Source of the DNA: Candidatus Omnitrophota bacterium
GTDB lineage: Bacteria; Omnitrophota; Gorgyraeia; Zapsychrales; Fredricksoniimonadaceae
Length of the DNA stretch: 64,000 nt
Reading direction: 5' to 3'
Assembly (NCBI GenBank): GCA_903944345.1
Contig: CAJARJ010000011.1
Location: 3,460-67,459 of the forward strand
Each line of letters begins with the position of its first letter. Position 1 is the stretch's first letter. The translations under genes and the position numbers were made by a program. This document shows positions 727 through 34,364 of this stretch, piece by piece. The notes under the pieces are model-generated. The model worked only from the letters and a program-made list of their open reading frames with translations. It did not search any database and was not told the origin of the DNA.

Positions 727-728
727 AT

Positions 729-745: not shown

Positions 746-787
746 TTGTAATAAAATGTTAAAGGACTGCACAAAACAATTCTGTAT

Positions 788-813
788 GTCACGAATTATA
801 GTCACGAATTATA
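788..813. repeat. Tandem direct repeat, 2 x 13 bp (gtcacgaattata), lying between the stop of the giant gene and the 18-bp motif copy at 775-792.
   Basis: Seen directly: gtcacgaattata gtcacgaattata. Confidence 0.7.
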
Positions 814-3800
814 TCAGGGGGAAATAAAAAACGCCCGGATGTCTTTTTCAGGTTTTATGGCCACAATCACCGGAACTAGCCCGCTGATATCCGCATATTT
901 TTGTAAAATAGCCGGCGAAATATCCATGTCCATACCACCATCATGGCTTATGGCAAGATCAAAACGGGAAGTATCCAGATCAATACCACCGGGATTATCT
1001 TCCGGCACAGACGTGTGATCCGGATCAGCAGGTATTCCCCTGTCTTCCTCGATCAAACGAAGTGTTCGATCAACAGAAAAAGGCAAAAAACTCCCCGCAT
1101 TTACCCGGTTTACCTGCCAGGCCGCGTTTAACAAAAACAGCCAGGCCGAAGGATGACGCAAAAGAGATTCCCCTGAAACTCCCGTGAAAAGATCATCAAG
1201 TCTTTGCGCATAACTATTCTCCAGCAGTAATGTTCCATTATCAGTTAACCGCATTCTCCCCTTCATGCCCGGTCCGGCAGGAGCTATATTCAACCGGGAC
1301 AAATCCACCCCCAGAAGCCGCTGACTGTCAGCAAAAAGACGACGGCTCCATTCCTGCGCACCAGGCAGCCAAGCGGGTGCAACGCTGTCGCGAGAGATCT
1401 GCCCGGCTGAAGAGTCCCCAGAAGATTGAAGAAAATTGTTTATATCCGGAAGATTTACCGGTTTGACGGCCTCAGCCTCGCCGGATTTCTGCCGGACTGT
1501 TTGCGTTTCTTCAGGCTTTTGCGCGGATGCCTTACGCGACCGACGGGAAGCAATCGAAGCTCTGGCAAAAATGATCCCGGTTACAATAAGAAAAAAAGCC
1601 GTGATACCTCCCACAACGAAAGCAACCGGGTGCATCAGAATTTTCGCCGCTCTGGCACGGAAGGAGAAATCGTCCGCCACCTTGTACTCGCGGGAAACAT
1701 CCTTGAATGAATCCTGGAACTCTGTCAGCCCGACGCTTGAATCGCCAGAAACAGTCGAAGGCACTCCCGTGTCTGTACCAGGCACCGGAGGATCGTACTC
1801 TCCTTGCACATTCCGGACATTGACAATGTTGTCCGTTCCCCAGGAAAAAGGAATAATCGTACCGTTCTGTCCGACAACATAAGTATCCGCATGATAACTG
1901 TTGGAGAAAACTCTTCCGTAGTTCTTGTAAATATGCACACTGCTGTCCAAAGCACGATAACCCATACGATTTAGAAACAACCCGTAATACCGGCTGATAT
2001 CTCCGCAGGCTCCTCCAGCTTTTTTATCCGGGTCACCTCCACCGGTAATTTTCATCAAAGCGTCTGTTGCGGTGACATCCCCCTGATAAACCTCTCTGGT
2101 ATCATCGTACTCAATAAAGTCTGCGGTCATTTCCAGTGTCTTAAGAACCTTTTCCCTGGCAGAGAGAGAAACGTCTTCGGAAATGGCGCGTATTTTCTTT
2201 TCCAGAACAGGATAAGTCTGCATGGCATGAAACTCCTGGTTGTCCTGATCAACCACCGGAATCTGCCCAGCAGGAAGACGATTGTTTTTATCCCGGCGCG
2301 GAATAATATACGTGATTGTTCCTGAGGAAGTAAAATCCTGCTTCACCGTGACATGCCCCCGGCTGATCGAAGTCTGGTCAAAAAGCGCCAAAGGAATAGT
2401 TGATGTCATAATTCTCTCGGGAACACCGTCTACAATCTGCGGAAAATAAATAGTCTCTCCGGCCTGATGCGGCCCCAACGGCATGGTAACAATAACCGCT
2501 TCTCCTGTCCGCTTGCCCTGCGGCTCCATTTCCCTTAAAGCAACTGTTTTCCCGTTTCCGTCGGAATAATGAAAGGCATGGATCAGATACTCCCCCGGGC
2601 GCATTCCTGTCACCTGATAAAGTGAAACGGCATTCCTGCTTTCAGGAACAGATCGAGGCAATTCAATACCATTCGTCAGATACGGATAACCACCTTGTTC
2701 AGCCAGAAAAATAACCGCTCCAGTCAACGCAACCGCCGCTGCCTTGCGCCACCTGACAGGAAAAACACGCTCAAGGGTTACCGAAAAGGTCTCACTGGTA
2801 CTCAAAGGACGGGCTTTCAGGACTGACGGAATATCTTCGTGCTGGGGAGGAAGAATGAAGGGCGAATCGATTTCCGGTGCATCGAGTGTCTGAACAGAAC
2901 CGCCGCGGTAAATGTCCAGAAGGCTCATCGGGCCATTAACCGTATCAAACTTCACCCGCACCATCAAACGGTACCAGTGTTTTAACATGTCTTCTTCCGG
3001 CACCAGATCAAAGCGGCTCTGCTTGTCGGAGGATGTATAGGCATTATTCAAATAGGCTGAAAATCTCCTGATCTCGGGATACCTGCTCTCATCTTCGCCG
3101 GCTCTCTCCAGAGAGGCCTTGACAGAAGCGACAATGTCAGGATCATTTATCCTGTCTGAACGCACCGCCAGAGCCAGCATGGCCTTAAGCCCTTCACTTG
3201 CGCGGATCAATGGCCAGTACGCCGGATAAGCCGGCTCCGTGCGGGCCTTGGTGGGCAAAATACCGTCCGGTATTTCCGTATCCACCCCCCATGACAAAAG
3301 AGTGCGCTGGACTTCCACCGGAATAACACCGTCCCAATATCTGGAGGCCACCGCGTCCAGAGGTGCCGGCATGGGCAGATTGTCCTGCAAAACCCTGCTA
3401 AGAGAATGCCCTGTGATCAAAAGACGCGAATCGGAAAAATCTCCGAAACGCAAAGACGCAGCAGGCTCTCCCGGGCGATTGAGTTTTTCTCCGTTTAAAA
3501 AAATATCGACATCTTCCACCGCACTTCCATAGTACTCAAACCGTTTCTTTATTTTGCTGGCGTAGCGCCTCAGCTCCGCCATCGATTCAAACACCCTTTC
3601 CTGGCGGATCAAGGTTCCGTGAAGAGGCTCTTGATCCTGCAAAGACACCACTTCCCGTTCCTGGAGCGAATCAACCACCAATGTCCCGTCTTCCTTCCTG
3701 GAAGCTGAAAGCACAAACCCGTAATTTGCAGGGGCCCCGGCGGCCACACGGGAGACCGGCAGGCTTTCAACCACAATCCTGTCGCCAGGAAGGGTTTGGG

Positions 3801-6800
3801 CCCATATGGTATAAAAGCCCTGCCCCATATGACGCGACTTACTGGTGGCATCCAGAGGAAGAAGTTTGTTAATCATGACATAATCATCCATGCCATCGCC
3901 TTTGTCCCGGATCTGGAGAGCCAGCGTATATTTCCCGTCAGTACGCGCAACAGAGTACAGGCGCACAGCAATGTCTTTCTGTTGGCCCTCCTGTCCGGAA
4001 CGAAGTGCGTCCCGGGCATTCTGCAAAAGCTCCCGCGGCAAGGTGGTAGGATCCTGCCCCGAGATGGCCGAAAAAATTTCCTGATCATAACCGGCTTTGA
4101 CATCCCCAGGAAAAGAAGAACCCAGTTCTCTGTCCAGCCCGGAGATATCCAGATCAGAATCTGCCCGGTTACGCGCGGAAAGAATATGGGCCAAAGGGAT
4201 ATCTTCAAGGCTATGAATTATTTTCCCTTCCCCGGGGACAAGAGATTCGAAGGTATCTCTCGCTGGCACAGACATGGCCAAGGGGTATAAAAGAGCATGC
4301 CAGAACTCCCGCATGGCCGGCGGGGCCTGATCCTGGTATTCGGACGCAAGCAAACGAACACCGGGCATTGTTTCCTGTCCGACAACATACCTGCGGTTTA
4401 TTTGATCCAGAAACCCTCTCGCCGAGAAAGGATCATCTCCGGCAAGCGCTTCTACCCAGGCAGACACAACCGTATTGAGCTTTTCCGGAACAAGCGTATC
4501 GAGAACAGGATCCATCCTCTCAAAAAAAAGGAACAACTCATTCTCCGCGGACAAAACGGTTGTCTGCACATACCTGAGAAGCGAAGAACGAACTTCATCA
4601 GAAAGCCGTCCTAATACCCGAGCCGAGGCAAACGGCAAAAGTGGGGCAAGAGAATCTGTTATAAGCTCAGGCGGCAAAGAAGCCAGATTGTCGAAAAGCC
4701 GCCGAAGTCTCAGAACGGAGAGATATTCTTTTCCTGACTCCGACTCCGGCACGGCCTCAATTTCTTCCGAAGAAGGGAAATCGAGCCTCTTCCAAAACTT
4801 CTTCATTGACCCCGTCGCCGGCAACAAAACATGGTCCGCGGCCAACACAGGAGTGGAACTCCATTCTCCCGGGGGAAGAAGTTCCCATAAATTATAAAAA
4901 CGACGGGCTTCCTTATCGAATATATAACCAGAGAACTTTTCTATAGAACCAATGCCGCCACCCAAAACAACAAAATCATATCGACCCGGTCCGCCGATAT
5001 AACGTGTAACATCTCTATCTGCGGGAAGTGGTATTTCCTGCAAGGAGCCATCGGCAAGATCAATACTCACCAATTTCTTTCCGGCCACTCCGTAAAGGCT
5101 GCCCTGCCAACGGGTAAAACTTAAGTCCGACTCTTCCGTATTCAGTTTCCCACGAAGAACAAGACCATCAAAAACCGTATATTGACTGCCTATCGTATAA
5201 ACATAAAGGCAGACTTCTCCGGATTTTTTTTTGCTCCTGGTCAAGGCGTAAACATATTTATCATCAGCTGAAGAATATAACAGTTTTTGATTAGACGGAT
5301 AAATAATAACCGGTATCCGCTTGATCTTTCTTTCCGAAAGAGTAACTCGTGCGATTACACCCATGCCACCCAGAAAAAATTTGTCAGCAATATAAACATC
5401 TCCCTCAGGCCCGGGGACCGGAGCCATCGCCGATGGAGAGGAATATCTGTAAGACCTCTTCTTGTTCAGATCAAAAAGCAAATGAGCCCAGTTTCCGAAT
5501 ACAGGTATACTCAAATCAACGAACCCTGGAACGGACTTTGAAGGAAGAAGTTTTGATAAATGAGCTTCGAAACTGGAAAGATCAAAGTGCTTCCTCAAGA
5601 AATAAAGCCCACCATAATCTGAAATCAAAAGCCACCACAAAGAATAACCTATACCAAGGAAGGTAAATAAATATGATAATGCGTAATAATAAGTAAAATA
5701 GTACTGATACTGAAGGCAAAGAATCAAAAACGCAGCAATTTCTAGTGATTGACGAATCCGCAGACCTTCCCCGGGAACGATATTCTTTCTGACATCCCAG
5801 AACGTTTGCCGCGCAATAATGGATATCAGACCAACAGAAATCAGCCCTATTGTCGATGTAAAACCACCTACTGCATATACACCAAGAGCGATCACTGCCA
5901 GAGACATAACTGAAACCAGTAAATGAACGACATCTCCAGCAGACAACTTGTTTCTTAACGGAATATTCATCACAAAACGCCCCTGGTTCACAGTCAAACC
6001 AAACGGAGTGGCTGTTGAATTTTGCAGCAAATCATGGGATGAATACCTCCCGCTTTTCTTGCCCGTAAGAGAGTTGATCGCCCAACGATAGGATCTATCA
6101 GCTCTTTGCTCCCATCCAATAATTTCGTTGCTATTGAATACTGACTCATTGTTCGTATCGGTCACAACAAATTCAGGAGCGTCATTCCACAGATAATGAC
6201 CGTCACTCAGCGCACCCTGCGGGTGCATCTTGCGGAAAGGTCTCCAGTCGGGGTCATCCGCATCCGGTTTTGACACCGTTGAAATCATTACGCCGTCGCT
6301 GGTAACCTCCTCCACAGTATTAGCACCTAGTGTCCCGGATGACGACTCGACCGACTCCACGGCCTGGGCGAGGCCATTCGCGCTCAGTGCAGCCGATTGC
6401 AGGTTATTACGAAGCCTTTGAGTGTCTCCGGCGGAAAGTCCGGATCCCTCTTCTAATCTCTGCAAAACAATCCCCAAATCTTCCTTCAGATTCCCGGCCT
6501 CTTCTGCCGGTAAAGTAAAGCTGACAATACCGTTCTCCCGCAAAACAGCATTCATAAACTCTGCCGACTTGTGCCTGTCGGGTGCCTGTAACAGTGTTTC
6601 TTCCTGGGAATTCGATATAAACAACGCTTCTCTGCCAAAAGGAATCATCAATGCTTTATCCTCCGACGGCAAGACATAAACTCTCTGCCCGCGAAAAGAC
6701 CGGGAACGGTTCAGCGAAGAATCCAGAAGCTCGCTTGAGCCTGTAAAAAATGCATCATCCAGATAAAAAAGCGCCAGACCTGAAAGATCCTGCCCCTCCA

Positions 6801-9258: not shown

Positions 9259-9282
9259 AAGGAAAGTTTAGACTATATGCGC

Positions 9283-9348
9283 ATAGAATGCCAAAAAGGC
9301 ATTAAACATACTGGGAACACAGAACCATTCCTTAACATATAGCGACAT
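9283..9348 (-). pseudogene. Remnant mini-ORF MLRNGSVFPVCLMPFWHSMRI* upstream of the giant gene, inside a duplicated 5' module. It is homologous to the start region of paralog A (MLRNNSVCHY...).
   Basis: Region 9335-9365 (cttaacatatagcgacattttatagc) is homologous to 719-745 (cttaacatattgtgacattatatcac). The equivalent ATG is followed by a stop after 21 codons. Confidence 0.4.
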
Positions 9349-9386
9349 TTTATAGCAATGCCACTAAACGTTAGAAAATGTCACGA

Positions 9387-9434
9387 AACAATTCTGTGTG
9401 TCACCGATTACCTAATTCTGTGTGTCACCGATTA
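9387..9434. repeat. Two copies of the 18-bp motif AACAATTCTGTGTGTCAC, arranged as a 2 x 21-bp tandem direct repeat (aattctgtgtgtcaccgatta, 3-bp spacer cct) upstream of the giant gene.
   Basis: Seen directly. The same 18-mer is at 775-792 (one G-to-A change) and inverted at 700-717. A partial copy (cagaattgt) is at 14407-14415. Confidence 0.7.
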
Positions 9435-10460
9435 ACGAACTCTCTCTCCAATAAACTCAAAATAAGGAGAAAGCACATCCTCTTCAGGAAAAACCTCGGG
9501 AGCAATCCGAAAAAAAAGTTTTTTGAAATCCTCCAAATGATAATCCAGTATCGTCAAATCCGTATCATAACGACTGGAACGCACCTGATTGTGCATGCAA
9601 AAAAAATAACGAGCGCTTGAGAAAACCCGTGAACGAAAATAATATTCAAACCACTCCCGGGACATCTCCCCCAACGAAGAAATTCCGCTGAAAACATCAA
9701 CTGACCCTGTTTGCAGCCGCTCATAAAGAAACGGCGGCAACAGAATAAAATCATGCGCCAGAATAAAATCACGATCAATTGACTCCAGCGCTGCTATCGT
9801 CTGATAGGAAGCAATCTTCGCCTCCGGAAAATGTGTTTGCAAGTAATAATGCGCCAGCGCCAAAGGCTCGGGAAAGTCCAGCAACACCTGAGAACAACAA
9901 GGATTATCTCTTTTTATCAAGGCAGAGAAATATCCATAATTCCCTCCAACATCCATCAAGGTAAAATTCTCCTCCAGCCCTGGCAAAACATAATGCCGGA
10001 ATAGCAGCAAAAAATAGACCCGAATCAGCCATTTCTTTGTAAATGTATACCCGTTATAGAAAAACAATATCGGGCCTCCCACATCATCACAGGGATAGTC
10101 ACGCAAAAGATCAAGAACACCAACTCCTCCAAGACAGACCTCTTTGCAAGCCTTGTAAAGAAGCAAAAGCTCCTTGCGCTCCTGCGGCAATATTTTATCT
10201 GCATTACGAGATCCCAACGGATTATGCCGGGAAGGGATATCCGCAATAAATATCTCCAGATTGCGAAAATTTCTTACTGCCTCACGATTCAAAGTCCCGT
10301 CAGGAGAAACAAATTTATCTGCCCGGGGATAAACCTGGGCCTCCGATGTCCCACCAAGATAAAGTTCCGGCTGCGAGCAAAGAAATTCTTTTTGCATACG
10401 CAAATCCTGCTCAATAAGGCCAAACAGGAATTGCTCTCTGTTCGACAAAACCATACCCAT
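9432..10460 (-). CDS. Class I SAM-dependent methyltransferase (FkbM / sugar O-methyltransferase-like).
   Basis: Glycine-rich SAM motif LMDVGGNYGYFSALI. 342 aa. Embedded in the paralog array. Confidence 0.55.
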   Translation of the reverse strand: MGMVLSNREQFLFGLIEQDLRMQKEFLCSQPELYLGGTSEAQVYPRADKFVSPDGTLNREAVRNFRNLEIFIADIPSRHNPLGSRNADKILPQERKELLLLYKACKEVCLGGVGVLDLLRDYPCDDVGGPILFFYNGYTFTKKWLIRVYFLLLFRHYVLPGLEENFTLMDVGGNYGYFSALIKRDNPCCSQVLLDFPEPLALAHYYLQTHFPEAKIASYQTIAALESIDRDFILAHDFILLPPFLYERLQTGSVDVFSGISSLGEMSREWFEYYFRSRVFSSARYFFCMHNQVRSSRYDTDLTILDYHLEDFKKLFFRIAPEVFPEEDVLSPYFEFIGERVR

Positions 10461-10495
10461 CCTTTCCAGAAGTTATGACAAATTGGGATCCCAAA

Positions 10496-11437
10496 TCAAC
10501 GCCGCATCAGTCTTATTAACCAGAATAAAAACGGCCCGTAGCACAAAAGACAACCGATAAAAAGAAAAGGGGCAAAAGGAACACGAGACTTGATTTCCTT
10601 CATATGCTCGCTCAGTTCATTGACAATTTGTGAGAAAATGGTCAATGGAATCATGCGCAGCAAAAACCTTCCCGCAGCATCCGCCGAAAATATTGTATAC
10701 GAACTAAAGAACTGGAACAAAAGTCCCCCAAGGGCAAAAGTATAAACAAAACATTTAAAAAGCTTTCCGGAAGGATTCAGGGCAAATACCCCGCGATAAA
10801 TAAAGAAGATAATACAAATAACCAAAGGATTCCCCGAAGGTATCCTGAAGAAACCAAAAAGAGGGAAAATGGCCCATGAGATGACGGTTGTTATTTCAAA
10901 CGAATAAATCAGATTTTGTACTGTTTTTAACGAACACACCGCCCTGAAAATATCACGAAAATGAGAAACAACCCCGTCAAAAATCATCGGGAAAAGGAAA
11001 ACCATGCCCGCCAGGAATGTATTAATAAAATGCGCCAGACAAGGAAGCGGCGCTGACCTCTCATAAATATGGGAAGGCATAAGAAGGGCATACACCATAA
11101 AAAGCTTGGCATCCCCCGGTCTCCAGATATTGTTAACAAAAAGCAGAAAGGCCCCCAGCGCCGCTGCCGCAACATTTACAAGAAGAGGCACAGGCTCAAT
11201 GATATGCGCCATAACAGCCCAGACATGCAGAAAAATCCCGGCCAGGGAAGCAACAATAAGGTGAATATTCCTGATCTTGCGTTCCCGGATATCCGTAAAA
11301 GAAGTCATAGCCCCGGTTACAACAAGCAAAACCCAAAGAAGGGCCAAATAAATCCCGTATGGAGCTATTGTCATGAAAAGACCCTGGAAGATTATTTCAA
11401 ACCTACGTGCAACTGTTGAACTATATTGTCCGGCCAC
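10496..11437 (-). CDS. Polytopic membrane protein with an A24-family aspartic peptidase signature (prepilin peptidase / CpaA-TadV-like) and an extra C-terminal ~4-TM extension.
   Basis: TSFTDIRERKIRN after TM1 matches D-x-R-x-R-x-I-P-N (P replaced by R). WRPGDAKLF matches the GGGDVKL second-aspartate motif. About 8 predicted TM helices. No pilin or flp gene nearby. Confidence 0.45.
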   Translation of the reverse strand: MAGQYSSTVARRFEIIFQGLFMTIAPYGIYLALLWVLLVVTGAMTSFTDIRERKIRNIHLIVASLAGIFLHVWAVMAHIIEPVPLLVNVAAAALGAFLLFVNNIWRPGDAKLFMVYALLMPSHIYERSAPLPCLAHFINTFLAGMVFLFPMIFDGVVSHFRDIFRAVCSLKTVQNLIYSFEITTVISWAIFPLFGFFRIPSGNPLVICIIFFIYRGVFALNPSGKLFKCFVYTFALGGLLFQFFSSYTIFSADAAGRFLLRMIPLTIFSQIVNELSEHMKEIKSRVPFAPFLFIGCLLCYGPFLFWLIRLMRR

Positions 11438-11529
11438 AGGATGATCCGGAGTTCTATAAAAAATGAACGCGCGACAGGTCTATCATAATGCATCCTGTAC
11501 GCGCGTTCAATTATTCACTTGCCTAAAAA

Positions 11530-14274
11530 TCAGCGAAGAATACCGCTCTCCAACGGACGAATAAACTCGATTCGAACCTTCAAACCTTCCAGCCTGATTC
11601 CGGAGAAGTCCTGCTCTGACACCGGAAGAGGAATGCCTTCTCCATCACGCTGGATCTGCATATCAAGATGTTTCTGGGCCAGATCGATACCACCAACCTC
11701 ATCACTTCGGACAGGGATTGCAGATGCATCGGCGGCTGCCGCAGCAAACTCATTACGATAAGCCTCAACCCTGGCAATAACCCCATCAAGTTCATCAGCA
11801 CTCTCAATATCTCCTGCCGGAATATCAAAGTCGATCCACTGGGTGCGAGGAATATGTACCCCCAGATACAAACGCTCAGCATCAAGTCTCATGGTAAGAT
11901 CTGACGCTTGCTTACGGGCCAAGGCGAGAAAATCATCCATTAACTTTATTCGGGCTTCTCTAAGGGTACCGTCCAACAGGCGCGCCACGCCACCCCAACC
12001 CAAATCAGTCAACCGGGACAACGCAGGATTAAACAAAGTAACATCCATCAGCTTGCGATTCCGGTAACCGGACTGTGTCACGGCAATCTTGACAAATGTC
12101 ATCCCGCTATAAACTTCAACATCAAAAGCCGTCGCTTTGTAAGGGACAAGCGCAGGGAAAAATGCTTTTAAAAGCGACATCGTCACCCTTTGATCCGGAA
12201 CTATCCTGCCCTCGATGGAAAGCCGCTCCTGTCTGGTGATCTGGCTTGGCCAAACAAAAGTTTTTTCCTGCACAGCCTTAGAGGCAATCTTCTGACGGAA
12301 AGATTCGTCCGCAAGCAACTGATTAAGGTCTTGAACCAGATCTCCTGATTCGACAGGAGTAACATCCAGCTCTGTTTTCAAAACCTCCAGAAGCTCTGTC
12401 GGAGACATTCCTGCTTGCTGAAAGTCTTCCCACTGAAAAAGCGCCAATTCAGGATATATAACATTCTCCAAATGGAACATCTTGCGCCCCGGCGCAAGCA
12501 TCATCTCCTGATCAGCAGAAATAACCCCCGTCAAAGACTGAAGGATTTCCGGTTTCTCCATGGCAGCAACGCTGATTTCTGTCCTCTGGACAGAAGAATC
12601 CCCCTCGGCCAGCAGCTCTAACCCTCTGGTATGCTGCTCCAGCATTGCGAGCAAAGACTGCGGAGTCACCTCAGCACCCGCAGGAAAACGCACATCAAAG
12701 GCATTCCCGTCCTGCGGAACAACCCGAAGAACAGGAATATTGCTCTGCATTTCGATGGTATAGCGAACAGACCTGTCGTTATCCTTAAGCTGTTGCAACA
12801 ACGCCGCAAGCCTGTCAGTCTGCAGACGCAATACCATGGCACGCAAAAAACTGACCGTATCCGACCAGTTGGCTTTGGCGAGTTCCAGAAACCGGGACTG
12901 ATCAACGCCAAACAGTGTTACTTGCATAAGAGCATCGGAGTCCTTATCGGAGACAACAACCTTCAAATACGGCATCGCTCCTCCGCTACTGATACTTACA
13001 TTATAAATATCCCTGCCTTTGTTTATCTGATATGCAACCATATTTGTGCCGGCATAAGACTTGCGAACCGGATCCTTGCCGGAAAGAACTCCCATAACCC
13101 GGAATAAATCAAGATTATAAATCTGGTTCTCCCGTAACGAAATGCTGAATTGCGCATCATCCACAGCGGAAACCAGTGAAACACGCATATCTTCCAGGCC
13201 AGAAACCTGGGCTTCGTCTGCGGACGAAAGCGCAGAAACGCGCTTGGCCGAATCGATGGCCGCTGTTGCATTGGTCATACCCCCCGAGAAATACTTGCGG
13301 GGAACCGGCTGGGCACCATAACTATCCACATCATCCCGGATCACGTTGTAGGCCCCGGCACGAAACGCCTCCAGATATTTCTGATAAATTTCTTCATTAA
13401 CCCGGGGATCCTGGCGAATTCCGGCCAGTCTTGATTTATCGCCGTAAAGCGACGTCAGTATGCTTTCCCTGAGAGCCTGTTTGTACCATGCCGCCAGGAG
13501 CATCCCGCTGTAAACCTGTCTTAACACCGCAAAATCCTTGCCTTCATTTACTTCCTGTTCAAGCACAGGCAGAATCACTTCCCGCATAACCTCACGGCTT
13601 AACTGTGTCAATTCCGTGTTTGCCGGCTCAAGGACATCCCGGCCCTGTGCGGCAAGGTAATCTGATTCCAGCTGAACCTTCAGCCGGGATTCAAGCACAT
13701 ACACGGCACTGCCCTTCTCATACAACTTTACCGAGTCGGGCGTAATCCACACCCGGTTGAACACATCGGTCGGGATATCCGTTATGGCATACTGGCGGTA
13801 AGCCCGCTCGTAAATTTTTTCCCAGAATTTTTTACCCAGCTCGGTGGAAGGATTACTTAAAGAAGAAGCCGCCTGCTTGAGCAGGTAATCCTGTACCAGC
13901 AAATCACGCCCCATCTCGGTCTGACCAAAGTTGTCGGCAATAATGCGGTCTTTTTCGAAAGGAGAAAGGTTCACCCACTGATCCGTGTCGGGCACTGTGA
14001 CCGAAGCCAGAAAATATCTGATCAAACGGCTGTATTGCTCCTGTTTTTGCGCATCATCCAGGCTAACATCTCCGCTTTGAACAATAAAATCCAGTTTGAA
14101 GGGATCTTTGGCATCAATAACAATCCCTTTAAGAACCGCAGGGCGATCCGTCGGAATGATCATGCCGGGCGAAACAGCAGGCGTTCCTGTCAGCTGAGCA
14201 AAAGCCGCGGAAGGAAGAAAAGTTGTGGAAACAAAACATAACAAAACAAAACAGGCAACAATACGTCGTAACAT
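11530..14274 (-). CDS. Secreted protein (about 915 aa from the MLRRIV start), paralog C: signal peptide, shared N-terminal module, unique middle, shared C-terminal tag.
   Basis: ORF 11530-14340. The likely start at 14274 (MLRRIVACFVLLCFVSTTFLPSAAFAQ) is preceded by AAAAGGAC. N-terminal module is about 65% identical to the giant protein. C-terminal VGGIDLAQKHL...GLKVRIEFIRP. Confidence 0.75.
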   Translation of the reverse strand: MLRRIVACFVLLCFVSTTFLPSAAFAQLTGTPAVSPGMIIPTDRPAVLKGIVIDAKDPFKLDFIVQSGDVSLDDAQKQEQYSRLIRYFLASVTVPDTDQWVNLSPFEKDRIIADNFGQTEMGRDLLVQDYLLKQAASSLSNPSTELGKKFWEKIYERAYRQYAITDIPTDVFNRVWITPDSVKLYEKGSAVYVLESRLKVQLESDYLAAQGRDVLEPANTELTQLSREVMREVILPVLEQEVNEGKDFAVLRQVYSGMLLAAWYKQALRESILTSLYGDKSRLAGIRQDPRVNEEIYQKYLEAFRAGAYNVIRDDVDSYGAQPVPRKYFSGGMTNATAAIDSAKRVSALSSADEAQVSGLEDMRVSLVSAVDDAQFSISLRENQIYNLDLFRVMGVLSGKDPVRKSYAGTNMVAYQINKGRDIYNVSISSGGAMPYLKVVVSDKDSDALMQVTLFGVDQSRFLELAKANWSDTVSFLRAMVLRLQTDRLAALLQQLKDNDRSVRYTIEMQSNIPVLRVVPQDGNAFDVRFPAGAEVTPQSLLAMLEQHTRGLELLAEGDSSVQRTEISVAAMEKPEILQSLTGVISADQEMMLAPGRKMFHLENVIYPELALFQWEDFQQAGMSPTELLEVLKTELDVTPVESGDLVQDLNQLLADESFRQKIASKAVQEKTFVWPSQITRQERLSIEGRIVPDQRVTMSLLKAFFPALVPYKATAFDVEVYSGMTFVKIAVTQSGYRNRKLMDVTLFNPALSRLTDLGWGGVARLLDGTLREARIKLMDDFLALARKQASDLTMRLDAERLYLGVHIPRTQWIDFDIPAGDIESADELDGVIARVEAYRNEFAAAAADASAIPVRSDEVGGIDLAQKHLDMQIQRDGEGIPLPVSEQDFSGIRLEGLKVRIEFIRPLESGILR

Positions 14275-14487
14275 GAACAGTCCTTTTCTTACAGAGTAAA
14301 ATCCGCCCCTCGCGTGTCGGGCCCGGACCGGATTAAACAACCAGGACAGAGAAGCCGATAAAGACTCTCTGCTATTCTATAATTTATTTGATTCGAAAGA
14401 TTCTAGCAGAATTGTCATAAAAAGTCAATTATGGCAATAAATGCAAGTTTTTGCAAAAACACTGGTCAACGATGCTGCAGGTAAGGG

Positions 14488-17400
14488 TTAGTTTGGAGTC
14501 AAGCCCAAAACAACTGAAAGCCGCGCGACCGGAGTCACTTCAAGAATGACGGGAGAAAGCCCATAAAAATCGCCCCGGAAGGCGCTCTGCAAAGCATCAA
14601 AACTGAAGGAAACCCGGCCTGGGTTGCGCTGACCGGACAGGACGATATCCTTGATGTCAATACCGCCAACAGGCTCCTGCGCCTGGTCTACCCCGTCGGG
14701 AATAGCCTGAACAATGCCTCCCGGAAGAATACCGTATTCCATAAGAACACGGAACACTTCCGAAACACTCCAGGCCTGGGAAGGCGTCCCGCCCGCAGAA
14801 CGCTGGCCATTTTCCCTAGGTTCGGCATCATAAACTTCCGCAATCGACCCTGTTGCCAGGAAATCCCGCACCAGCGGATCAAGCACCGCCGAGATTTCTC
14901 TTTTTATATCTTCATCCGGCCTGTTTTGCGCGCGCAAAACCTTGGCCAAAGCATCAACATACCCACCAATAAGCCATGGCCAAACCGTCCCCTGATGATA
15001 CGCATAATCTTTATGCCAATGGAAATCAGGATGTCCGGGAGAAGGCTGAAAAGATGTGTCATAACGCGGCCTGTAATGGGAATCCCTGGGGTCCAGCGTA
15101 CGCAGCCCCTTGTCGGTAAGAAGCCTTCGAGTCACCGCATCCACGACCTGCTTTTGTCTTTCAAAAGAAAGCAAATCCTCACCATGACTGACCGCAAAAA
15201 TCATGTTGGGCCGCACGGCGCCACCATGTGAATCCCCCTCGATCACATCAAAAAGTAAATTCTCAGGCTCATCAACATCTGCAGAAACCGGACGATCATT
15301 CCAGAACTTCTTGTTAAAACTGCTCTTGACCTTGAGCAACAAAGCCTGCAGCCTTGAGGCTTCAACCTCAACATCTTCGATATTCATCGAAACTTTCATT
15401 TGCTCGGTCAATTGCCCGCCCACCTCCGAGAGAAGACGCACCAGATACCTGAGATTCGCATACCACAAAGCATTGATCTCGACAGCTTTTCCATTGCGCG
15501 GCGTGACCGGCCCCTGTGCATTCGGATCGGCATCCATCCAGGTGGCCTGTGATGGGCTAGAAATCAGGGCATCCGAGGGATCCATGTAAATGCGGTTATA
15601 ATTATTTGCAGGAAAAGCGTTAATATGTTTGGAACGGTCATATCCGACGCCTTTTTCGTAGGCCGTCAGAATAGCACGGACAACCGGAAACATTTCCAGG
15701 GCAAAAGCCTGATCCCCGGAGTATTCAACGTACTTTTTGACCGCCTGGATAAACCACATCGGGCCGTCAACAGTATTGTACTCGTTCCACTCCGGATGAC
15801 GGGAATCTGGAATACGGTTGGGGATCAGTCCGTCTTTCATGAATGAAGCAAAACTGCGAATGACCGCGCGCGCTTCTTCAAAACGCCCGGTTGCAAGCAG
15901 AATACCTGGCAAGGAAATGAAGGTATCCCTCCCCCACTGCTCCAGAAACCATTCACTGGGACGCCCCGCAGCCCATATCTCGACAACAGGCTTCCCATTG
16001 CGCTCGACGTGCTGGACAAAGGAGTCGGCGGTCATGGCCAGGACACCCCGAAGCGCCGCACGCACCTCGACTGAAGCCCCTTCCAGGCTGAAATACCCCC
16101 CCCGATGCAAATCAGGCAGAAGTTCATGCAAACGAAACAAATCCGAAGCCTTGAACCTTGTCCGCGAAAAATAATCCTGATCACCGGGCAAAGGAATACG
16201 GTAACGCCAGGTGGAGTGACCATCAGCTTCTTTTTTGAGCGGCTGCTTATCTCCGTGAATATCTCCCATGGCCAGCGCAAGAAAAGACGAACGGCCCGCA
16301 GTCAGGCTGTCCAGTTCACGCTTGGCAGTCTGAACCTTGCGAATAAACGCCACCGAATTTGCATGATAGTTACGCGGATCATCGTGAGTCGATATACGTT
16401 TGTAAAGACCGTCCATTGGCACAATGCCATGACGTTGTATATCATAAAATGTATTGTTGAAGGCCTCGGCAACAACAAAGGCCTGACGGTCATTAAAGAT
16501 CTTTGCAACCGCAGCCACAAGGGCGTCACCGGGTTCAGCCTCAAGATTATCCTGTCCGATATTATAAGCAAAATGCAAAGCATCAATCCTGGCGCCGTCG
16601 AAACCGAAGTCCAGCCAGAATTGCATCGGATCGGTGATCAACCTGAATTTGTCTTCTTTAAGTTTATCCCAATTCCACAACGCCAGATCACCCCATACCA
16701 CCGGAAGGAAAGACAAGCCCGGGCTTAACCCCTCCTCAAGCCCGCGAAAATATTCCGGAGAGGCTGTAATATCAACACTGTCTTTTCCGCGAAAGAACGG
16801 AATATCAAACAACAGCTTGCCGCCCTCGGCATGAACCTGATCAACTGCTTTCCTGAACTGACGAAAGGCAATCCACTGCCGGAAAAGATGCTGCTGGATA
16901 TTCGACTGCCTGTCACCCGACTCTCTTTCAGCTTTCCAGCGGGCAAAGGTTTGCAGCTTCACCGACAGATTCGGATCCGTTTGAGTCTTCTCCAAAAAAT
17001 CTTTGGCAAGCGAAGTATCCTTACCCAGATGCCTGGACGAAAAAAGCCTCCAGACCTGCAAGGACAAAGCGGCATTACGCTCCCGGACAGAAGGAAAATC
17101 GATCTCGGCAGAAGTCCCGGCAGGAGCTTCAAGGAGATCTTTGACGGAAGCAAGAATAGCCTGTGCATCCTGATCATCCTCGGACATTTCCCGTATAAAA
17201 AGTTCCCAGTCAACCAGATCTTCGTTTAGCGCATATAGATATTCGGGAGCATACGGACTTTCGTGACGAATAGAATAAAACGGCATCAGCTGCATTACAG
17301 AAACACCCTGCGGTATGGCGGTCTCACGATAATATAAGGGAATATCCGAGAATTTGCCAATTCCCGGATCGCCCTGTTGGCGACGCAAAGCCGAAACAGC

Positions 17401-18606
17401 CACTTCTTCAACAATATACTGCCTGTTTTCCTGCTTCCACCAGACAGGCGCTTCGGCTTTGGCAGACTGCGCAGGACTCGCCGCCCAGTCCACGGCAAAC
17501 ACCTGACCTTGTTCTGTTTGAGAAATTTGCGCAGCATCCGCACGCGTTACAGGGATCTGTCCAAACTGCATCCCACCGGCGAAATACTTCCTGGGAATAA
17601 CTTCTCCATCAGGCCCCGGTTCTTCCCGGATGAAATCAAAGATACCTTTTTTATACGCCTGGATATAACGCTGATAAATATCTTCCTTGACCCCCGGCTC
17701 CGGTGCAGTAACCCCCGCCACCTTGTTTTGTCCGGCGTATTTCCGGGCAACAAGGGTTTCCCGGATCTGCTCACGGTACCATTTGCCCAGGATAGCCGCA
17801 TGATAAATCTGCCTGGTCACGGCAAAATTTTTTCCTTCATTGACCTCTTTTTCGATAACCGGAAGGATCACAGAACGCATAATATCCCGAACCAGGGCTT
17901 CGTTAACATTCTCCTGCTGCTGATCGACATTCCCGGCAGAAGCGGTGCGGTCACGGTCAAGCATGACCTTGAGCCGGGCGCCGGTCACATAAACAAGATT
18001 ATCTTTTTCGTAAATTTCGGCCCGATCCGGCATGATCCATATCTTGTTAAAAACATCTACCGGGATATCAGTTGTTCCAAAACGGCTATGCGCCACAGAG
18101 TAGATTTCTTTCCAGAAAGACTTGCCCAGCCCCTTGTCGGGATACACCAGCGAAGCCGCCAGCTGTTTGAGCACATAATCCTGCGCCAGCATATCGCGGC
18201 CAAGAACAGTTTCACCCAGCTGTCCTTCGACAATCCGGTCTTTTTCAAACGGCGAGAGGTTAACCCACAACTGGTTTTCAGGAACGGTAACAACCGCCAA
18301 GAAATACCTGGCCATGCGCTGGCTTTGCTCTGCGATTTCCCCGCGGGCGGGAATTCCATTTCCCGAATCAACAATAAAACGAAAATCCAGCGGACGAGCG
18401 GGATCGACTATAAGCCCTCTGACTAAAGGAGGAACATAACTTTCGGAAACCGCCAGCATATCCCCCGGGCCAGGAAGGGCAGCAATAAAGCCCCCCTGCG
18501 TCCAGGCAACGGAAGAGTCAAATATGAAAAAAAGAAGAGTTACAGCAGCAACAGATTTCTTAAAAAACAGGCGCGGAGAGAATGAAAGTAGAAAAGAATC
18601 AAGCAT
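14488..18606 (-). CDS. Secreted 4-alpha-glucanotransferase (GH77-like) plus amylo-alpha-1,6-glucosidase (GDE C-terminal domain) fusion, preceded by the shared N-terminal module and ending in the shared C-terminal tag. Paralog D (about 1372 aa).
   Basis: ORF 14488-18642; probable start at the second ATG (18606, MLDSFLL...). Signal peptide KKSVAAVTLLFFIFDSSVAWTQ. GH77-like motifs ESPYAPEYLYALN, LLFDIPFFRGKDSVD, FDGARIDALHF. GDE motifs HQGTVWPWLIGGYVDA and GDSHGGAVRPNMIFAVSHG. C-terminal VGGIDIKD...GLSPVILEVTP. Confidence 0.75.
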   Translation of the reverse strand: MLDSFLLSFSPRLFFKKSVAAVTLLFFIFDSSVAWTQGGFIAALPGPGDMLAVSESYVPPLVRGLIVDPARPLDFRFIVDSGNGIPARGEIAEQSQRMARYFLAVVTVPENQLWVNLSPFEKDRIVEGQLGETVLGRDMLAQDYVLKQLAASLVYPDKGLGKSFWKEIYSVAHSRFGTTDIPVDVFNKIWIMPDRAEIYEKDNLVYVTGARLKVMLDRDRTASAGNVDQQQENVNEALVRDIMRSVILPVIEKEVNEGKNFAVTRQIYHAAILGKWYREQIRETLVARKYAGQNKVAGVTAPEPGVKEDIYQRYIQAYKKGIFDFIREEPGPDGEVIPRKYFAGGMQFGQIPVTRADAAQISQTEQGQVFAVDWAASPAQSAKAEAPVWWKQENRQYIVEEVAVSALRRQQGDPGIGKFSDIPLYYRETAIPQGVSVMQLMPFYSIRHESPYAPEYLYALNEDLVDWELFIREMSEDDQDAQAILASVKDLLEAPAGTSAEIDFPSVRERNAALSLQVWRLFSSRHLGKDTSLAKDFLEKTQTDPNLSVKLQTFARWKAERESGDRQSNIQQHLFRQWIAFRQFRKAVDQVHAEGGKLLFDIPFFRGKDSVDITASPEYFRGLEEGLSPGLSFLPVVWGDLALWNWDKLKEDKFRLITDPMQFWLDFGFDGARIDALHFAYNIGQDNLEAEPGDALVAAVAKIFNDRQAFVVAEAFNNTFYDIQRHGIVPMDGLYKRISTHDDPRNYHANSVAFIRKVQTAKRELDSLTAGRSSFLALAMGDIHGDKQPLKKEADGHSTWRYRIPLPGDQDYFSRTRFKASDLFRLHELLPDLHRGGYFSLEGASVEVRAALRGVLAMTADSFVQHVERNGKPVVEIWAAGRPSEWFLEQWGRDTFISLPGILLATGRFEEARAVIRSFASFMKDGLIPNRIPDSRHPEWNEYNTVDGPMWFIQAVKKYVEYSGDQAFALEMFPVVRAILTAYEKGVGYDRSKHINAFPANNYNRIYMDPSDALISSPSQATWMDADPNAQGPVTPRNGKAVEINALWYANLRYLVRLLSEVGGQLTEQMKVSMNIEDVEVEASRLQALLLKVKSSFNKKFWNDRPVSADVDEPENLLFDVIEGDSHGGAVRPNMIFAVSHGEDLLSFERQKQVVDAVTRRLLTDKGLRTLDPRDSHYRPRYDTSFQPSPGHPDFHWHKDYAYHQGTVWPWLIGGYVDALAKVLRAQNRPDEDIKREISAVLDPLVRDFLATGSIAEVYDAEPRENGQRSAGGTPSQAWSVSEVFRVLMEYGILPGGIVQAIPDGVDQAQEPVGGIDIKDIVLSGQRNPGRVSFSFDALQSAFRGDFYGLSPVILEVTPVARLSVVLGLTPN

Positions 18607-18731
18607 GTGTTTATTCTTTCGTTCTTTATCATCGTTTGGCATAATTAATTATTATATTGCAGTTAGAGTCATTTACATGCTTGCAATACAATACCTGACA
18701 CAAAAAAAAAGTCAAGCGCCTGCCACCTCAT

Positions 18732-19415: not shown

Positions 19416-19431
19416 TTTGTCCCCTTGTAAT

Positions 19432-31436: not shown

Positions 31437-31576
31437 TCCTCCTTTGATTATCTTTAATAAACGTCAAACAAAGTTAACTTGCTTTTACTGCACCCCCTTT
31501 CAGAGGCGGGACACCGATCATATGCTGTATAATTCCATTTTGCTTTGCGGCGTCCTGCCTTCCTTTGGCTCCTGAA

Positions 31577-32889: not shown

Positions 32890-32894
32890 ATGAT

Positions 32895-33290: not shown

Positions 33291-33306
33291 ATTCCCCTCA
33301 ATCCCG

Positions 33307-34362: not shown

Positions 34363-34364
34363 GC

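What the first reader, a model, noticed from the sequence alone, without database searches (positions are those of the whole stretch)
814..18606. Conserved roughly 55-aa C-terminal tag (VGGIDL/I ... GL.PVI..V.P) on otherwise unrelated C-terminal regions
The last 55-60 residues of the three complete paralogs align. They are PGGIDLDTSRFDLAISHDGG..ISGLVPVIVAIKP, VGGIDLAQKHLDMQIQRDGEG..EGLKVRIEFIRP and VGGIDIKDIVLSGQRNPGR..YGLSPVILEVTP. The tail is not hydrophobic enough to be a TM anchor. It resembles none of the sorting tags I know (LPXTG, PEP-CTERM, GlyGly-CTERM, T9SS CTD). Having both ends conserved around variable cargo suggests a secretion, sorting or polymerisation signal.
Basis: seen in the sequence. 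Interest (0 to 1): 0.6.

Follow-up and report, generated by a model that had tools for sequence, protein, structure and literature searches.

The report
Paired end-caps on exported Omnitrophota enzymes
The C-terminal tag is real: it is one half of an undescribed pair of end modules (an N-terminal domain plus a 60-residue tail) that brackets thousands of very different signal-peptide-bearing enzymes in the candidate phylum Omnitrophota, and its function is still unknown.

Summary
A profile built only from 40 external tails hits the C-termini of all three window proteins (B 2e-16, A 9e-10, C 3e-5). The next-best match in the six-frame window is E=1.7.

The tail is a large family: 5300 clusters at 50% identity, always 50-110 residues from the stop codon. 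Its consensus is GGID(L/F)N..L.LQIKRDG.GVPLP..Q....I.G(F/L).PVI.NI.P.

The tail is almost never found alone. It goes with a Sec-type signal peptide and a ~310-residue N-terminal domain ending in an invariant PRKYFSGG. In genome loci, 75 of 85 complete N-domain genes end in the tail, and at least 4 of the 10 exceptions are genes split by a stop or frameshift.

Nearly all carriers are Omnitrophota MAGs, and the genes often sit in tandem arrays. The cargo between the two modules is 72-4845 residues. Most is unannotated; where recognisable it is of cytoplasmic type (PGM, PGK, PGI, GAPDH, TIM, methyltransferases, receiver domains; glycogen debranching enzyme in window protein C).

No Pfam, NCBIfam, PDB or literature match exists for either module. 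AlphaFold gives the tail confident β-strands only in the full-length protein, so docking onto the N-domain is my favoured, unproven mechanism. The A24-like peptidase is not a conserved neighbour.

The parts
817..1014 (-). C-terminal tail module of protein A (aa 2749-2814: TSVPEDNPGGIDLDTSRFDLAISHDGGMDMDISPAILQKYADISGLVPVIVAIKPEKDIRAFFISP). The stop codon is at 814..816.
   Evidence: The leave-out tail HMM gives E=9.1e-10.
1015..8253 (-). Variable cargo of protein A (aa 336-2748). It has no Pfam, NCBIfam or PDB match. It contains strongly hydrophobic segments at aa ~1113-1145 and 2545-2563.
8254..9258 (-). Signal peptide (aa 1-26, ...GHA|Q) and conserved N-terminal domain of protein A, ending in PRKYFSGG (aa 335).
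   Evidence: The N-domain HMM gives E=1.9e-157. It is 44-47% identical to B and C.
11533..11718 (-). C-terminal tail module of protein B (IPVRSDEVGGIDLAQKHLDMQIQRDGEGIPLPVSEQDFSGIRLEGLKVRIEFIRPLESGILR). The stop codon is at 11530..11532.
   Evidence: The leave-out tail HMM gives E=2.4e-16.
11719..13278 (-). Variable cargo of protein B (520 aa), with no Pfam, NCBIfam or PDB match.
13279..14274 (-). Signal peptide (MLRRIVACFVLLCFVSTTFLPSAAFA|Q) and N-terminal domain of protein B. The likely ATG start is at 14274; the mechanical ORF starts at TTG 14340.
   Evidence: The N-domain HMM gives E=1e-157.
14491..14691 (-). Divergent C-terminal tail module of protein C (VDQAQEPVGGIDIKDIVLSGQRNPGRVSFSFDALQSAFRGDFYGLSPVILEVTPVARLSVVLGLTPN). 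The stop codon is at 14488..14490.
   Evidence: The leave-out tail HMM gives E=3.3e-5. All family-invariant residues are kept.
14692..17571 (-). Cargo of protein C: 4-alpha-glucanotransferase (GH77, aa 415-687) plus amylo-alpha-1,6-glucosidase (GDE_C, aa 874-1298). Together these form a glycogen-debranching-enzyme-like unit.
   Evidence: Pfam GDE_C 6e-94 and Glyco_hydro_77 1.2e-16. See also NCBIfam.
17572..18642 (-). Signal peptide and N-terminal domain of protein C. The start is at 18642 or, more likely, at ATG 18606.
   Evidence: The N-domain HMM gives E=2.2e-148.
1..726 (-). 5' part of a fourth paralog, D: signal peptide (...NGHA|Q) and the first ~240 residues of the N-terminal domain. The gene runs off the window, so its tail cannot be seen.
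   Evidence: the N-domain HMM gives E=7.7e-75.

Best explanation
The tail is the C-terminal half of a two-piece 'bookend' architecture specific to Omnitrophota. The order is: Sec signal peptide, then a ~310-aa alpha/beta N-terminal domain ending in invariant PRKYFSGG, then variable cargo, then a ~60-aa tail starting with invariant GGID.

Shown:
- The tail is a real, very large family.
- It always lies at the extreme C-terminus.
- It is almost obligatorily coupled to the N-domain in the same polypeptide.
- The N-terminus has the features of a cleaved SPase-I signal.
- The cargo is highly diverse, and where recognisable it is often of cytoplasmic type.

Inferred:
- The whole mature protein is moved across the cytoplasmic membrane.
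- The tail is not an autonomous domain. It folds as two or three beta-strands against the N-terminal domain of the same protein, so the two ends form one structural unit (a clasp) and the cargo sits as a giant insertion between two Gly-Gly hinges.
- This N/C unit is the constant 'handle' that the cell uses to place, hold or hand on a changing set of exported enzymes, for example on the cell surface or coat, or towards a host cell.

The final destination is not established.
For: Family reality:
- The tail profile finds 5300 clusters at E<=1e-3 and 2299 at E<=1e-10. In the best 150 the match always lies close to the C-terminal end of the protein.
- In 195 full-length members the GGID motif lies 50-110 aa (median 70) from the stop.

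Coupling to the N-domain:
- In 79 genome loci, 75 of 85 N-domain genes with a complete 3' end finish in the tail. At least 4 of the 10 exceptions are split genes whose next ORF carries the tail.
- Of 49 tail-bearing representatives of 1000 aa or more, 44 have the N-domain.
- Four of the five exceptions were examined. Two are cut by contig ends, one has a miscalled start, and one has an in-frame TAA.
- All 195 paired sequences carry both Gly-Gly motifs.

Export:
- The family-wide N-terminus has a K/R n-region, a 16-residue h-region and PP..A-x-A|Q. The A at -1 is present in 162 of 195 sequences and the Q at +1 in 157 of 195.
- 161 of 195 cargos have no strongly hydrophobic segment.

Docking:
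- In the AlphaFold2 model of the minimal member P0085 (500 aa, 77 paired sequences) the mean pLDDT is 77.5 and pTM is 0.79. The tail strands 445-447, 454-459 and 480-491 have pLDDT 80-95.
- A pTM of 0.79, with only ~64% of residues in the N-domain and 82 residues disordered, implies the tail is placed confidently relative to the N-domain. This is my inference.
- The tail alone (B tail, 42-sequence alignment) gives pLDDT 69.8, pTM 0.31 and no strands.
- Near-cargo-less members exist, with 72-120 aa between SGG and GGID. This fits a single unit with an insertion point.
Against: - I could not read coordinates or the PAE of the model, so tail-to-N-domain contact is inferred, not seen.
- The 12-residue tail strand might instead pair with the P0085-specific linker strand 391-401.
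- The tail-only control used a different and rather divergent tail (B).
- Mean-field DCA on 195 paired sequences gave only noise and no inter-module contact ladder.
- The invariant PRKYFSGG motif has low pLDDT (~40). This suggests a linear recognition or processing motif rather than a structural element.
- Exporting glycolytic, SAM-, ATP- and cNMP-dependent enzymes makes little sense in a periplasm. So either the destination is unusual or the export inference is wrong.
- No partner machinery or conserved neighbouring gene was found.
Confidence: 0.4

Rival explanations
1. The tail is an independent C-terminal secretion or sorting signal, analogous in logic to the T9SS C-terminal domain. It would be read by an as yet unidentified outer-membrane or surface machinery after Sec export. 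The N-terminal domain would have a separate role, such as anchor, chaperone or adaptor.
For: - The tail sits at the extreme C-terminus on thousands of signal-peptide proteins with unrelated cargo.
- It is highly conserved.
- It is not predicted to fold alone, as expected for a motif that is read by a partner.
- Omnitrophota are host-dependent and carry T2SS, T4P and Tad loci next to their large exported proteins (10.1101/2023.11.21.568195; 10.64898/2026.06.07.730766).
Against: - Near-obligatory coupling with one particular N-domain is not a property of known C-terminal signals. Those sit on proteins with any N-terminal region.
- No conserved neighbouring gene was found in 79 loci.
- The tail gains confident structure inside the full-length monomer model.
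Confidence: 0.25
2. The tail binds the N-terminal domain of another molecule (in trans). Family members would then chain head-to-tail into filaments or a surface lattice of enzymes, in the manner of donor-strand exchange in pili. This is a non-covalent counterpart of the giant multi-enzyme proteins of the same phylum.
For: - Every member has both a 'socket' and a 'plug'.
- The tail forms beta-strands only in the presence of the rest of the protein.
- Tandem arrays and several paralogs per genome are common: 20 of 79 loci hold 2-4 genes, and there are four in this window.
- The cargo repertoire (PGM, PGK, GAPDH, TIM, methyltransferases, HATPase, receiver) mirrors that of the giant Omnitrophota proteins (10.64898/2026.06.07.730766, section 8).
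Against: - No multimer prediction could be run.
- A monomer model that satisfies the tail in cis argues neither way.
- There is no evidence of filaments made of these proteins.
Confidence: 0.15
3. The two invariant Gly-Gly motifs (PRKYFSGG| and |GGID) are processing sites. The N-domain and tail would be pro-pieces removed, or transpeptidated, by a Gly-Gly-specific enzyme to release, cyclise or attach the cargo. One variant of this idea is an isopeptide between the tail Asp/Asn and a conserved N-domain Lys.
For: - GG is invariant in 195 of 195 sequences at both borders of the cargo.
- The PRKYFSGG stretch is conserved yet has low pLDDT.
- Tail position 11 is D (177) or N (15), which is the pair of residues used in Lys-Asp/Asn isopeptides. 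That link is my own knowledge, not tested here.
- C39 (double-glycine) peptidase domains are reported on giant Omnitrophota proteins (10.1101/2023.11.21.568195).
Against: - The flanks do not match the double-glycine leader consensus.
- No protease is linked in the neighbourhoods.
- A 310-aa well-folded domain with many invariant polar residues is unusual for a disposable pro-piece.
- There are no mass-spectrometry data.
Confidence: 0.08
4. The tail is the recognition element for the A24-like (prepilin-peptidase-like) membrane protease encoded between paralogs A and B.
For: The gene at 10496..11437 matches Peptidase_A24 (E 2.9e-6, 28.1 bits against a cut-off of 26.5) and lies inside the paralog array.
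Against: - No homolog of this peptidase, or of the adjacent methyltransferase-like gene, occurs within 10 kb of the matched N-domain gene in any of 79 related loci.
- A24 enzymes cut N-terminal leaders after Gly in front of a hydrophobic helix (established knowledge). The tail has no such helix.
Confidence: 0.02
5. The tail similarity among A, B and C is chance or compositional.
For: Pairwise BLAST between the three tails is at or near background, with E from 0.066 to above 10.
Against: Independent external profiles hit all three tails at 3e-5 to 2e-16, with noise starting at E=1.7. There are thousands of homologs with invariant residues.
Confidence: 0.005

Closest known systems
T9SS C-terminal domain (CTD) of Bacteroidota cargo proteins
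   Same: Both are conserved C-terminal modules of roughly 60-100 residues. Both sit on many unrelated proteins that also carry an N-terminal Sec signal peptide. Both are phylum-restricted and present in many copies per genome.
   Different: - The T9SS CTD is an autonomous Ig-like 7-stranded beta-sandwich (PMC11285876). This tail is not predicted to fold alone.
- There is no NCBIfam or Pfam CTD match.
- T9SS cargo has no obligatory N-terminal partner domain.
Sortase / exosortase-type tags (LPXTG, PEP-CTERM, GlyGly-CTERM, PGF-CTERM)
   Same: Both are short conserved C-terminal tags on exported proteins, often on expanded paralog families.
   Different: Those tags consist of a motif, a TM helix and a basic cluster. 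This tail has no TM-strength hydrophobic segment and no NCBIfam hit. No linked sorting enzyme was found.
Donor-strand complementation/exchange in pilus subunits (chaperone-usher, type V pili)
   Same: In both, a terminal segment that is unstructured alone becomes a beta-strand by inserting into a partner domain. In pili this can act in cis (self-complemented) or in trans (polymer).
   Different: Pilins are small single-domain subunits with no enzyme cargo. Here the two interacting ends are separated by up to ~4800 residues of cargo. The interaction itself is only inferred.
Cohesin-dockerin (cellulosome) system
   Same: Both use a small C-terminal module on diverse enzymes that plugs into a receptor domain to build extracellular multi-enzyme assemblies. 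Dockerins do occur on some giant Omnitrophota proteins (10.1101/2023.11.21.568195).
   Different: - There is no Pfam dockerin or cohesin match.
- The tail has no duplicated Ca-binding loop-helix.
- The putative receptor and plug are on the same polypeptide.
Exported glycogen-metabolism enzymes of Chlamydia (PVC group)
   Same: In both, housekeeping-type enzymes (phosphoglucomutase, debranching enzyme and others) are equipped with an export signal and work outside the bacterial cytoplasm (PMC4829429, PMC9251005). The cargo here includes PGM, UDPGP and a GH77+GDE_C debranching enzyme.
   Different: Chlamydia uses short N-terminal type-3 secretion signals. It has no Sec signal peptide, no 310-aa N-domain and no C-terminal tail. 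Export of the Omnitrophota proteins is predicted, not shown.
Giant multi-enzyme proteins of Omnitrophota
   Same: They come from the same phylum and also carry signal peptides. They share the cargo repertoire: PGM, methyltransferase, HATPase_c, HAD, HD, receiver, HEAT (10.64898/2026.06.07.730766 section 8).
   Different: Those papers describe proteins of 10,000 aa or more and mention no shared N-terminal domain or C-terminal tail. The members seen here are 0.47-5.3 kaa. I could not test whether the giants carry the bookends.

Membership tests
T9SS C-terminal sorting domain | Sequence match to the curated CTD models (NCBIfam TIGR04183 / TIGR04131, Pfam Por_Secre_tail and relatives). | tested here: not met
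   At E<=0.01, NCBIfam and Pfam scans of A and B give no family. C gives only GH77/GDE-type families.
T9SS C-terminal sorting domain | An autonomous Ig-like beta-sandwich fold of the CTD. | tested here: not met
   Tail-only AlphaFold2 gives pLDDT 69.8, pTM 0.31 and no beta-strands. Caveat: this is a single, divergent tail sequence.
Sortase/exosortase/rhombosortase-type tags (LPXTG, PEP-CTERM, GlyGly-CTERM) | A signature motif followed by a C-terminal TM helix and a cluster of basic residues. | tested here: not met
   No hydrophobic window of TM strength occurs in the last ~70 residues of A, B or C. There is no NCBIfam hit. The tail ends are ...KPEKDIRAFFISP...RPLESGILR and ...VVLGLTPN.
Type 1 secretion (RTX-type) C-terminal signal | Substrates lack an N-terminal Sec signal peptide and usually carry GGxGxD nonapeptide repeats. 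| tested here: not met
   A canonical Sec/SPase-I signal is conserved family-wide. No RTX or HemolysinCabind Pfam hit was found.
Autotransporters (T5SS) | A C-terminal (or, in inverse autotransporters, N-terminal) 12-stranded beta-barrel of about 250 aa. | tested here: not met
   The tail is only ~60 aa. The N-domain model is mixed alpha/beta with six long helices. There is no Pfam autotransporter hit.
Dockerin | A match to Pfam PF00404 with a duplicated Ca-binding loop-helix. | tested here: not met
   No Pfam hit. No internal duplication is visible in the tail consensus.
Substrates of A24 prepilin peptidases | An N-terminal leader ending in Gly, followed by a hydrophobic helix; co-occurrence with the peptidase. 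| tested here: not met
   The signal ends A-x-A|Q, not G|F/hydrophobic. The peptidase is absent from all 79 related loci.
New 'bookend' family (this work): N-domain plus tail | Signal peptide, an N-domain ending in (P)RKYF(S/A)GG, and a tail with GGID...G..P.I....P within ~110 aa of the stop. | tested here: met
   A, B and C match the N-domain HMM at 1e-148 to 1e-157 and the leave-out tail HMM at 3e-5 to 2e-16. All invariant residues are present. For D only the N-terminus can be seen.
ClyA-family alpha-pore-forming toxins (best Foldseek hits of the N-domain model) | Significant structural similarity to MakA, ClyA or SmhA. | tested here: not met

The most novel reading that the evidence does not exclude
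Omnitrophota may possess a phylum-specific, previously unrecognised protein-handling system. A two-part N/C carrier (a 310-aa N-domain plus a 60-aa tail, possibly locked together or chained through the invariant Gly-Gly/Asp motifs) would take hundreds of different cytoplasmic-type enzymes out of the cell by the Sec route. The cargo ranges up to whole glycolytic or glyoxylate multi-enzyme fusions. The carrier would install them on the cell coat or deliver them into the host or prey cell. The family would then be the effector or 'external metabolism' repertoire of these host-dependent nanobacteria, and the bookends would be its delivery signal.
Probability: 0.2. Interest if true: 0.85.

Novelty: new variant of a known kind. 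Interest (0 to 1): 0.66.

Why it matters
Omnitrophota are widespread, uncultured, host-dependent nanobacteria. Their very large exported proteins are much discussed but functionally opaque.

This finding defines a simple sequence signature: signal peptide, then an N-domain ending PRKYFSGG, then a tail starting GGID. The signature picks out thousands of their signal-peptide-bearing proteins and marks exactly where the variable cargo begins and ends.

That gives three things. It offers a way to catalogue the exported enzyme or 'effector' repertoire of any Omnitrophota genome. It provides a minimal, tractable member (~470-550 aa) for biochemical tests of docking, processing and secretion. It also sharpens a paradox: central-metabolic and signalling enzymes behind a Sec signal.

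If the bookends turn out to be a delivery or assembly signal, this would be a new secretion or sorting route.

Tried and rejected
1. Pairwise BLAST of the three tails is only marginal. It was not usable as proof, so I replaced it with external profiles.

2. Mean-field DCA on 195 paired N-domain+tail sequences (Meff 187) was dominated by a few hub columns. It gave no inter-module contact ladder and is uninformative.

4. Sequence searches of the N-domain profile, the tail profile and proteins A and B against PDB found nothing. The only hit was a Disks-large match at E=0.47, which is noise.

5. Conserved-neighbour search: all-vs-all clustering of ORFs in 79 loci found only antisense shadow ORFs of the N-domain and generic families such as response regulators and ABC-F. 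There was no A24 peptidase or methyltransferase-like homolog.

6. Stop-codon recoding as the explanation for split genes is rejected. The in-frame stops are a mix of TAA, TAG and TGA.

7. TM-parity test: I asked whether the cargo has an even number of TM helices. The crude hydropathy method is too unreliable, so only the statement that 83% of cargos lack any strong hydrophobic segment is kept.

8. Literature searches for the motifs (GGIDLN, PRKYFSGG, WVNLSP) and for an Omnitrophota C-terminal signal found no description of these modules.

9. Tool limitation: the search for homologous proteins returned only hits of length similar to the query. The short 'tail-only' proteins are therefore most likely contig-end fragments, as checked for P0121, not free-standing tails.

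Full report
**What is in the window**

Positions 1-18642 carry, all on the minus strand, a run of paralogous genes. In transcription order they are:
- C (18642/18606..14488, 1384 aa)
- B (14274..11530, 914 aa from the likely ATG)
- an A24-like membrane peptidase (11437..10496)
- a methyltransferase-like gene (10460..9432)
- A (9258..814, 2814 aa)
- the 5' end of a fourth paralog, D (726..1)

A, B, C and D share an N-terminal signal peptide and a ~310-340-aa domain. This domain is 41-47% identical between paralogs, with BLAST E from 1e-85 to 1e-99 and HMM E from 1e-148 to 1e-157. The middle parts are unrelated to each other. A and B have no Pfam, NCBIfam or PDB match. C carries a GH77 glucanotransferase plus a GDE_C amylo-1,6-glucosidase, that is, a glycogen-debranching-type enzyme.

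**Checking the observation**

I therefore looked for the tail elsewhere.

Homologs of the N-domain come almost entirely from Candidatus Omnitrophota/Omnitrophica MAGs. Those that are complete end in the same tail.
- An HMM from four such external tails hits B at 3e-17 and A at 6e-9.
- A leave-out HMM of 40 external tails hits B at 2.4e-16, A at 9.1e-10 and C at 3.3e-5. The next-best fragment of the six-frame window scores E=1.7.
- C is divergent but retains all residues that are invariant in 195 full-length members: GG (195/195), I, D/N, G44 (190), P47 (184), I49 (180), P54 (182).

The window holds no further tails and no further N-domains.

**Size and shape of the family**

A profile of 42 tails was searched against 1.84 billion representative proteins. 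It found 5300 clusters at E<=1e-3 and 2299 at E<=1e-10. In the best 150 the match is always at the extreme C-terminus of proteins up to 5312 aa.

The consensus is GGID(L/F)N(P/A)..L(D/N)LQIKRDG.GVPLP..QQ.(L/I)..(M/I).I.G(F/L).PVI(I/L)NI.P...LP.LLG. One subfamily adds an acidic extension that ends in ...REPE.ISLLN. In 195 full-length members GGID lies 50-110 aa (median 70) from the stop.

**The tail and the N-domain are coupled**

Of the 79 loci kept:
- 52 are labelled Omnitrophota, Omnitrophica, Omnitrophus or Aceula.
- 25 are labelled 'uncultured Planctomycetales'. This is the same PVC group, and the names are probably loose MAG labels.
- One each is labelled Elusimicrobia and Elulimicrobium.

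In these loci, 85 N-domain ORFs have their 3' end inside the locus. Of those, 75 end in the tail within 1-46 residues of the stop. Of the 10 exceptions, three are interrupted by in-frame stops and one by a frameshift, and in each the tail sits in the next ORF.

The coupling also holds in the other direction. Of 49 tail-bearing representatives of 1000 aa or more, 44 have the N-domain. I examined four of the five exceptions:
- Two are cut by a contig end (P0280, P0257).
- One has a miscalled start; the true ORF contains the N-domain at E=2e-166 (P0309).
- One has an in-frame TAA (P0177).

The short 'tail-only' proteins are most likely contig-end fragments, as checked for P0121. The architecture of signal peptide, N-domain, cargo and tail is thus close to obligatory. 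Twenty of the 79 loci hold 2-4 family genes, and in 19 of those all are on one strand, as in this window.

**The borders**

The N-domain ends in (I)P-R-K-Y-F-S-G-G, with Y, G and G in 195/195 sequences. The tail begins with G-G-I-D. The cargo between the two Gly-Gly motifs is 72-4845 aa. A few members are nearly cargo-less: P0015 has 72 aa, P0085 has 91 and P0093 has 120.

**Export signal**

Family-wide, the N-terminus has a K/R-rich n-region and a 16-residue h-region with a conserved Phe. This is followed by Pro-Pro and (A/G/S)-(Y/F)-A|Q, with A at -1 in 162/195 sequences and Q at +1 in 157/195. That is the textbook pattern of a Sec signal peptide cleaved by signal peptidase I (established knowledge).

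161 of 195 cargos have no strongly hydrophobic segment. Most mature proteins should therefore lie entirely beyond the cytoplasmic membrane. Protein A is an exception, with hydrophobic segments at aa ~1113-1145 and 2545-2563.

**Cargo**

Most cargo has no Pfam match: about 47 of 59 in the loci set. Where it is recognisable it is largely of cytoplasmic type:
- Phosphoglucomutase (6 of 29), PGK (3), UDP-glucose pyrophosphorylase (3), PGI (E=8e-195), receiver domains, CofD, CheR and PP2C.
- Methyltransferases, HEAT repeats, HD_4, GT2, cNMP-binding, metallo-beta-lactamase, GH26, HATPase_c and PRTase.
- The accessions for the methyltransferase, HAD, Macro, M48, trypsin-like and PPDK_N families, among others, in the precomputed Pfam column.
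- GAPDH plus PGK in a 5312-aa member.
- ICL, TIM, malate synthase and GAPDH in a 4828-aa member.

This is the same repertoire reported for the giant (10 kaa or more) Omnitrophota proteins (10.64898/2026.06.07.730766, section 8). Neither that preprint, nor West-Roberts et al. (10.1101/2023.11.21.568195), nor Seymour et al. (PMC10066038) mentions a shared N-terminal domain or C-terminal tail. A motif search of the literature found nothing.

**Structure**

AlphaFold2 was run on the minimal member P0085 with 77 paired homologs. It gave mean pLDDT 77.5 and pTM 0.79.
- The N-domain is a confident alpha/beta domain with six long helices and two long beta-hairpins.
- The PRKYFSGG stretch and most of the linker are of low confidence.
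- The tail forms strands 445-447, 454-459 and 480-491 at pLDDT 80-95.

The tail on its own (B tail, 42-sequence alignment) gives pLDDT 69.8, pTM 0.31 and no strands.

**Neighbourhood**

The A24-like gene is a plausible Tad/Flp-type prepilin peptidase: Pfam gives 28 bits, and it has the DIRERKIRN and GDAK motifs. However, neither it nor the adjacent methyltransferase-like gene has a homolog within 10 kb of the matched N-domain gene in any of the 79 loci. No other gene is a conserved neighbour. The rest of the window is ordinary: a chemotaxis operon, an MFS-acyltransferase-acyl-ligase fusion, a CDF transporter, a UvrD helicase and others.

**Interpretation**

Shown:
- The tail is a real, phylum-wide module.
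- It is strictly paired with an N-terminal domain.
- Both sit on signal-peptide-bearing proteins with freely varying cargo.

Inferred, with confidence about 0.4:
- The tail docks by beta-strand addition onto the N-domain of the same chain.
- The two ends form one constant unit, and the cargo is an insertion between two Gly-Gly hinges.
- That unit is the handle used to place or pass on the exported enzymes.

Rivals:
- An independent secretion signal read by unknown machinery (0.25).
- Trans binding giving head-to-tail chains (0.15).
- Gly-Gly processing or ligation sites (0.08).
- An A24 substrate (0.02).
- Chance (below 0.01).

The main unresolved tension is that glycolytic, SAM-, ATP- and cNMP-dependent enzymes are not expected to work in a periplasm. 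A precedent for exporting housekeeping sugar enzymes exists in another PVC lineage: Chlamydia secretes glycogen enzymes and phosphoglucomutase into the inclusion lumen (PMC4829429, PMC9251005). Omnitrophota are thought to be host-dependent epibionts or predators (PMC10066038). A destination on or in a host cell is therefore conceivable but untested.

**Comparison and novelty**

In logic the tail resembles the T9SS CTD, sortase-type tags, dockerins and pilin donor strands. It fails every membership test that could be run: there are no model hits, no TM helix or basic cluster, no autonomous fold and no linked enzyme. The obligatory pairing with a specific N-terminal domain has no counterpart among known C-terminal tags. 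I rate it a new variant of a known kind (a terminal sorting or assembly module), with about a 20% chance that it marks a truly new export or delivery system. Interest is 0.66.

Noticed in passing
window 10496..11437 (-) and 9432..10460 (-): Two unrelated genes are inserted between paralogs A and B. One is a 313-aa polytopic membrane protein that weakly matches Peptidase_A24 (28.1 bits) and has prepilin-peptidase-like motifs (DIRERKIRN, GDAK). The other is a 342-aa protein with a SAM-methyltransferase-like motif (LMDVGGNYGYF) and no Pfam hit. Neither recurs next to family genes in 79 other loci.
   Followed up: partly
window 814..9258 (-), protein A aa ~450-470 and ~1720-1735: The cargo of A contains two GHKL-ATPase-like N-box motifs (VFELMDNSIDA and RELLQNARDAL), which I spotted by eye. 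It also has several hydrophobic segments (aa ~1113-1145, an aromatic-rich stretch after it, and 2545-2563). Pfam, NCBIfam and PDB give no hit, so this is a lead only.
   Followed up: no
L029 12305..12307, L077 18734..18736, L083 2739..2741, L050 7757..7765: Several family genes in MAGs are interrupted by single in-frame stop codons, with the tail in the downstream piece. The stops are a mix of TAA, TAG and TGA. This points to nonsense mutations, pseudogenes or assembly errors rather than recoding.
   Followed up: partly
family-wide; e.g. P0134, P0141, P0157, P0165: One tail subfamily has an extra 25-50-aa acidic extension after the tail. It ends in a second conserved motif...(A/S)REPE(L/Q)IS(A/L)LN, or ...MELGFAVKEN. 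A, B and C in the window lack it.
   Followed up: no
family-wide N-terminus; window 9181..9258, 14197..14274: The signal peptide itself is unusually conserved for a Sec signal. It has a Phe in the h-region in 148/195 sequences, a Pro-Pro before the cleavage site and Gln at +1 in 157/195. This hints that it, or the new N-terminus (possibly pyroglutamate), has a role beyond targeting.
   Followed up: no
L086 2064..18002 and L087 5001..19487: The largest tail carriers looked at are multi-enzyme fusions of central carbon metabolism. One has GAPDH plus PGK (5312 aa). The other has isocitrate lyase, TIM, malate synthase and GAPDH, with faint aldolase (4828 aa). Both sit behind the same signal peptide and N-domain.
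   Followed up: partly
window 18732..19640 (-): A small ORF downstream of a hydrophobic N-terminal segment encodes a Ser/Thr/Gly-rich, low-complexity protein with loosely repeated 'S..G..T' stretches and no Pfam hit. It lies directly upstream of paralog C.
   Followed up: no
window 29421..37924 (-): A complete chemotaxis cluster is present: MCP, a CheD-receiver fusion, CheB, CheR and CheA-CheW. A large PAS-rich hybrid histidine kinase follows at 37983..42167. The organism is therefore probably motile and chemotactic.
   Followed up: no
L085 4873..10917 (protein P0309): The public gene call starts at an internal Met and so drops the signal peptide and N-domain. Automated annotation will therefore under-count the coupling of N-domain and tail.
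   Followed up: yes
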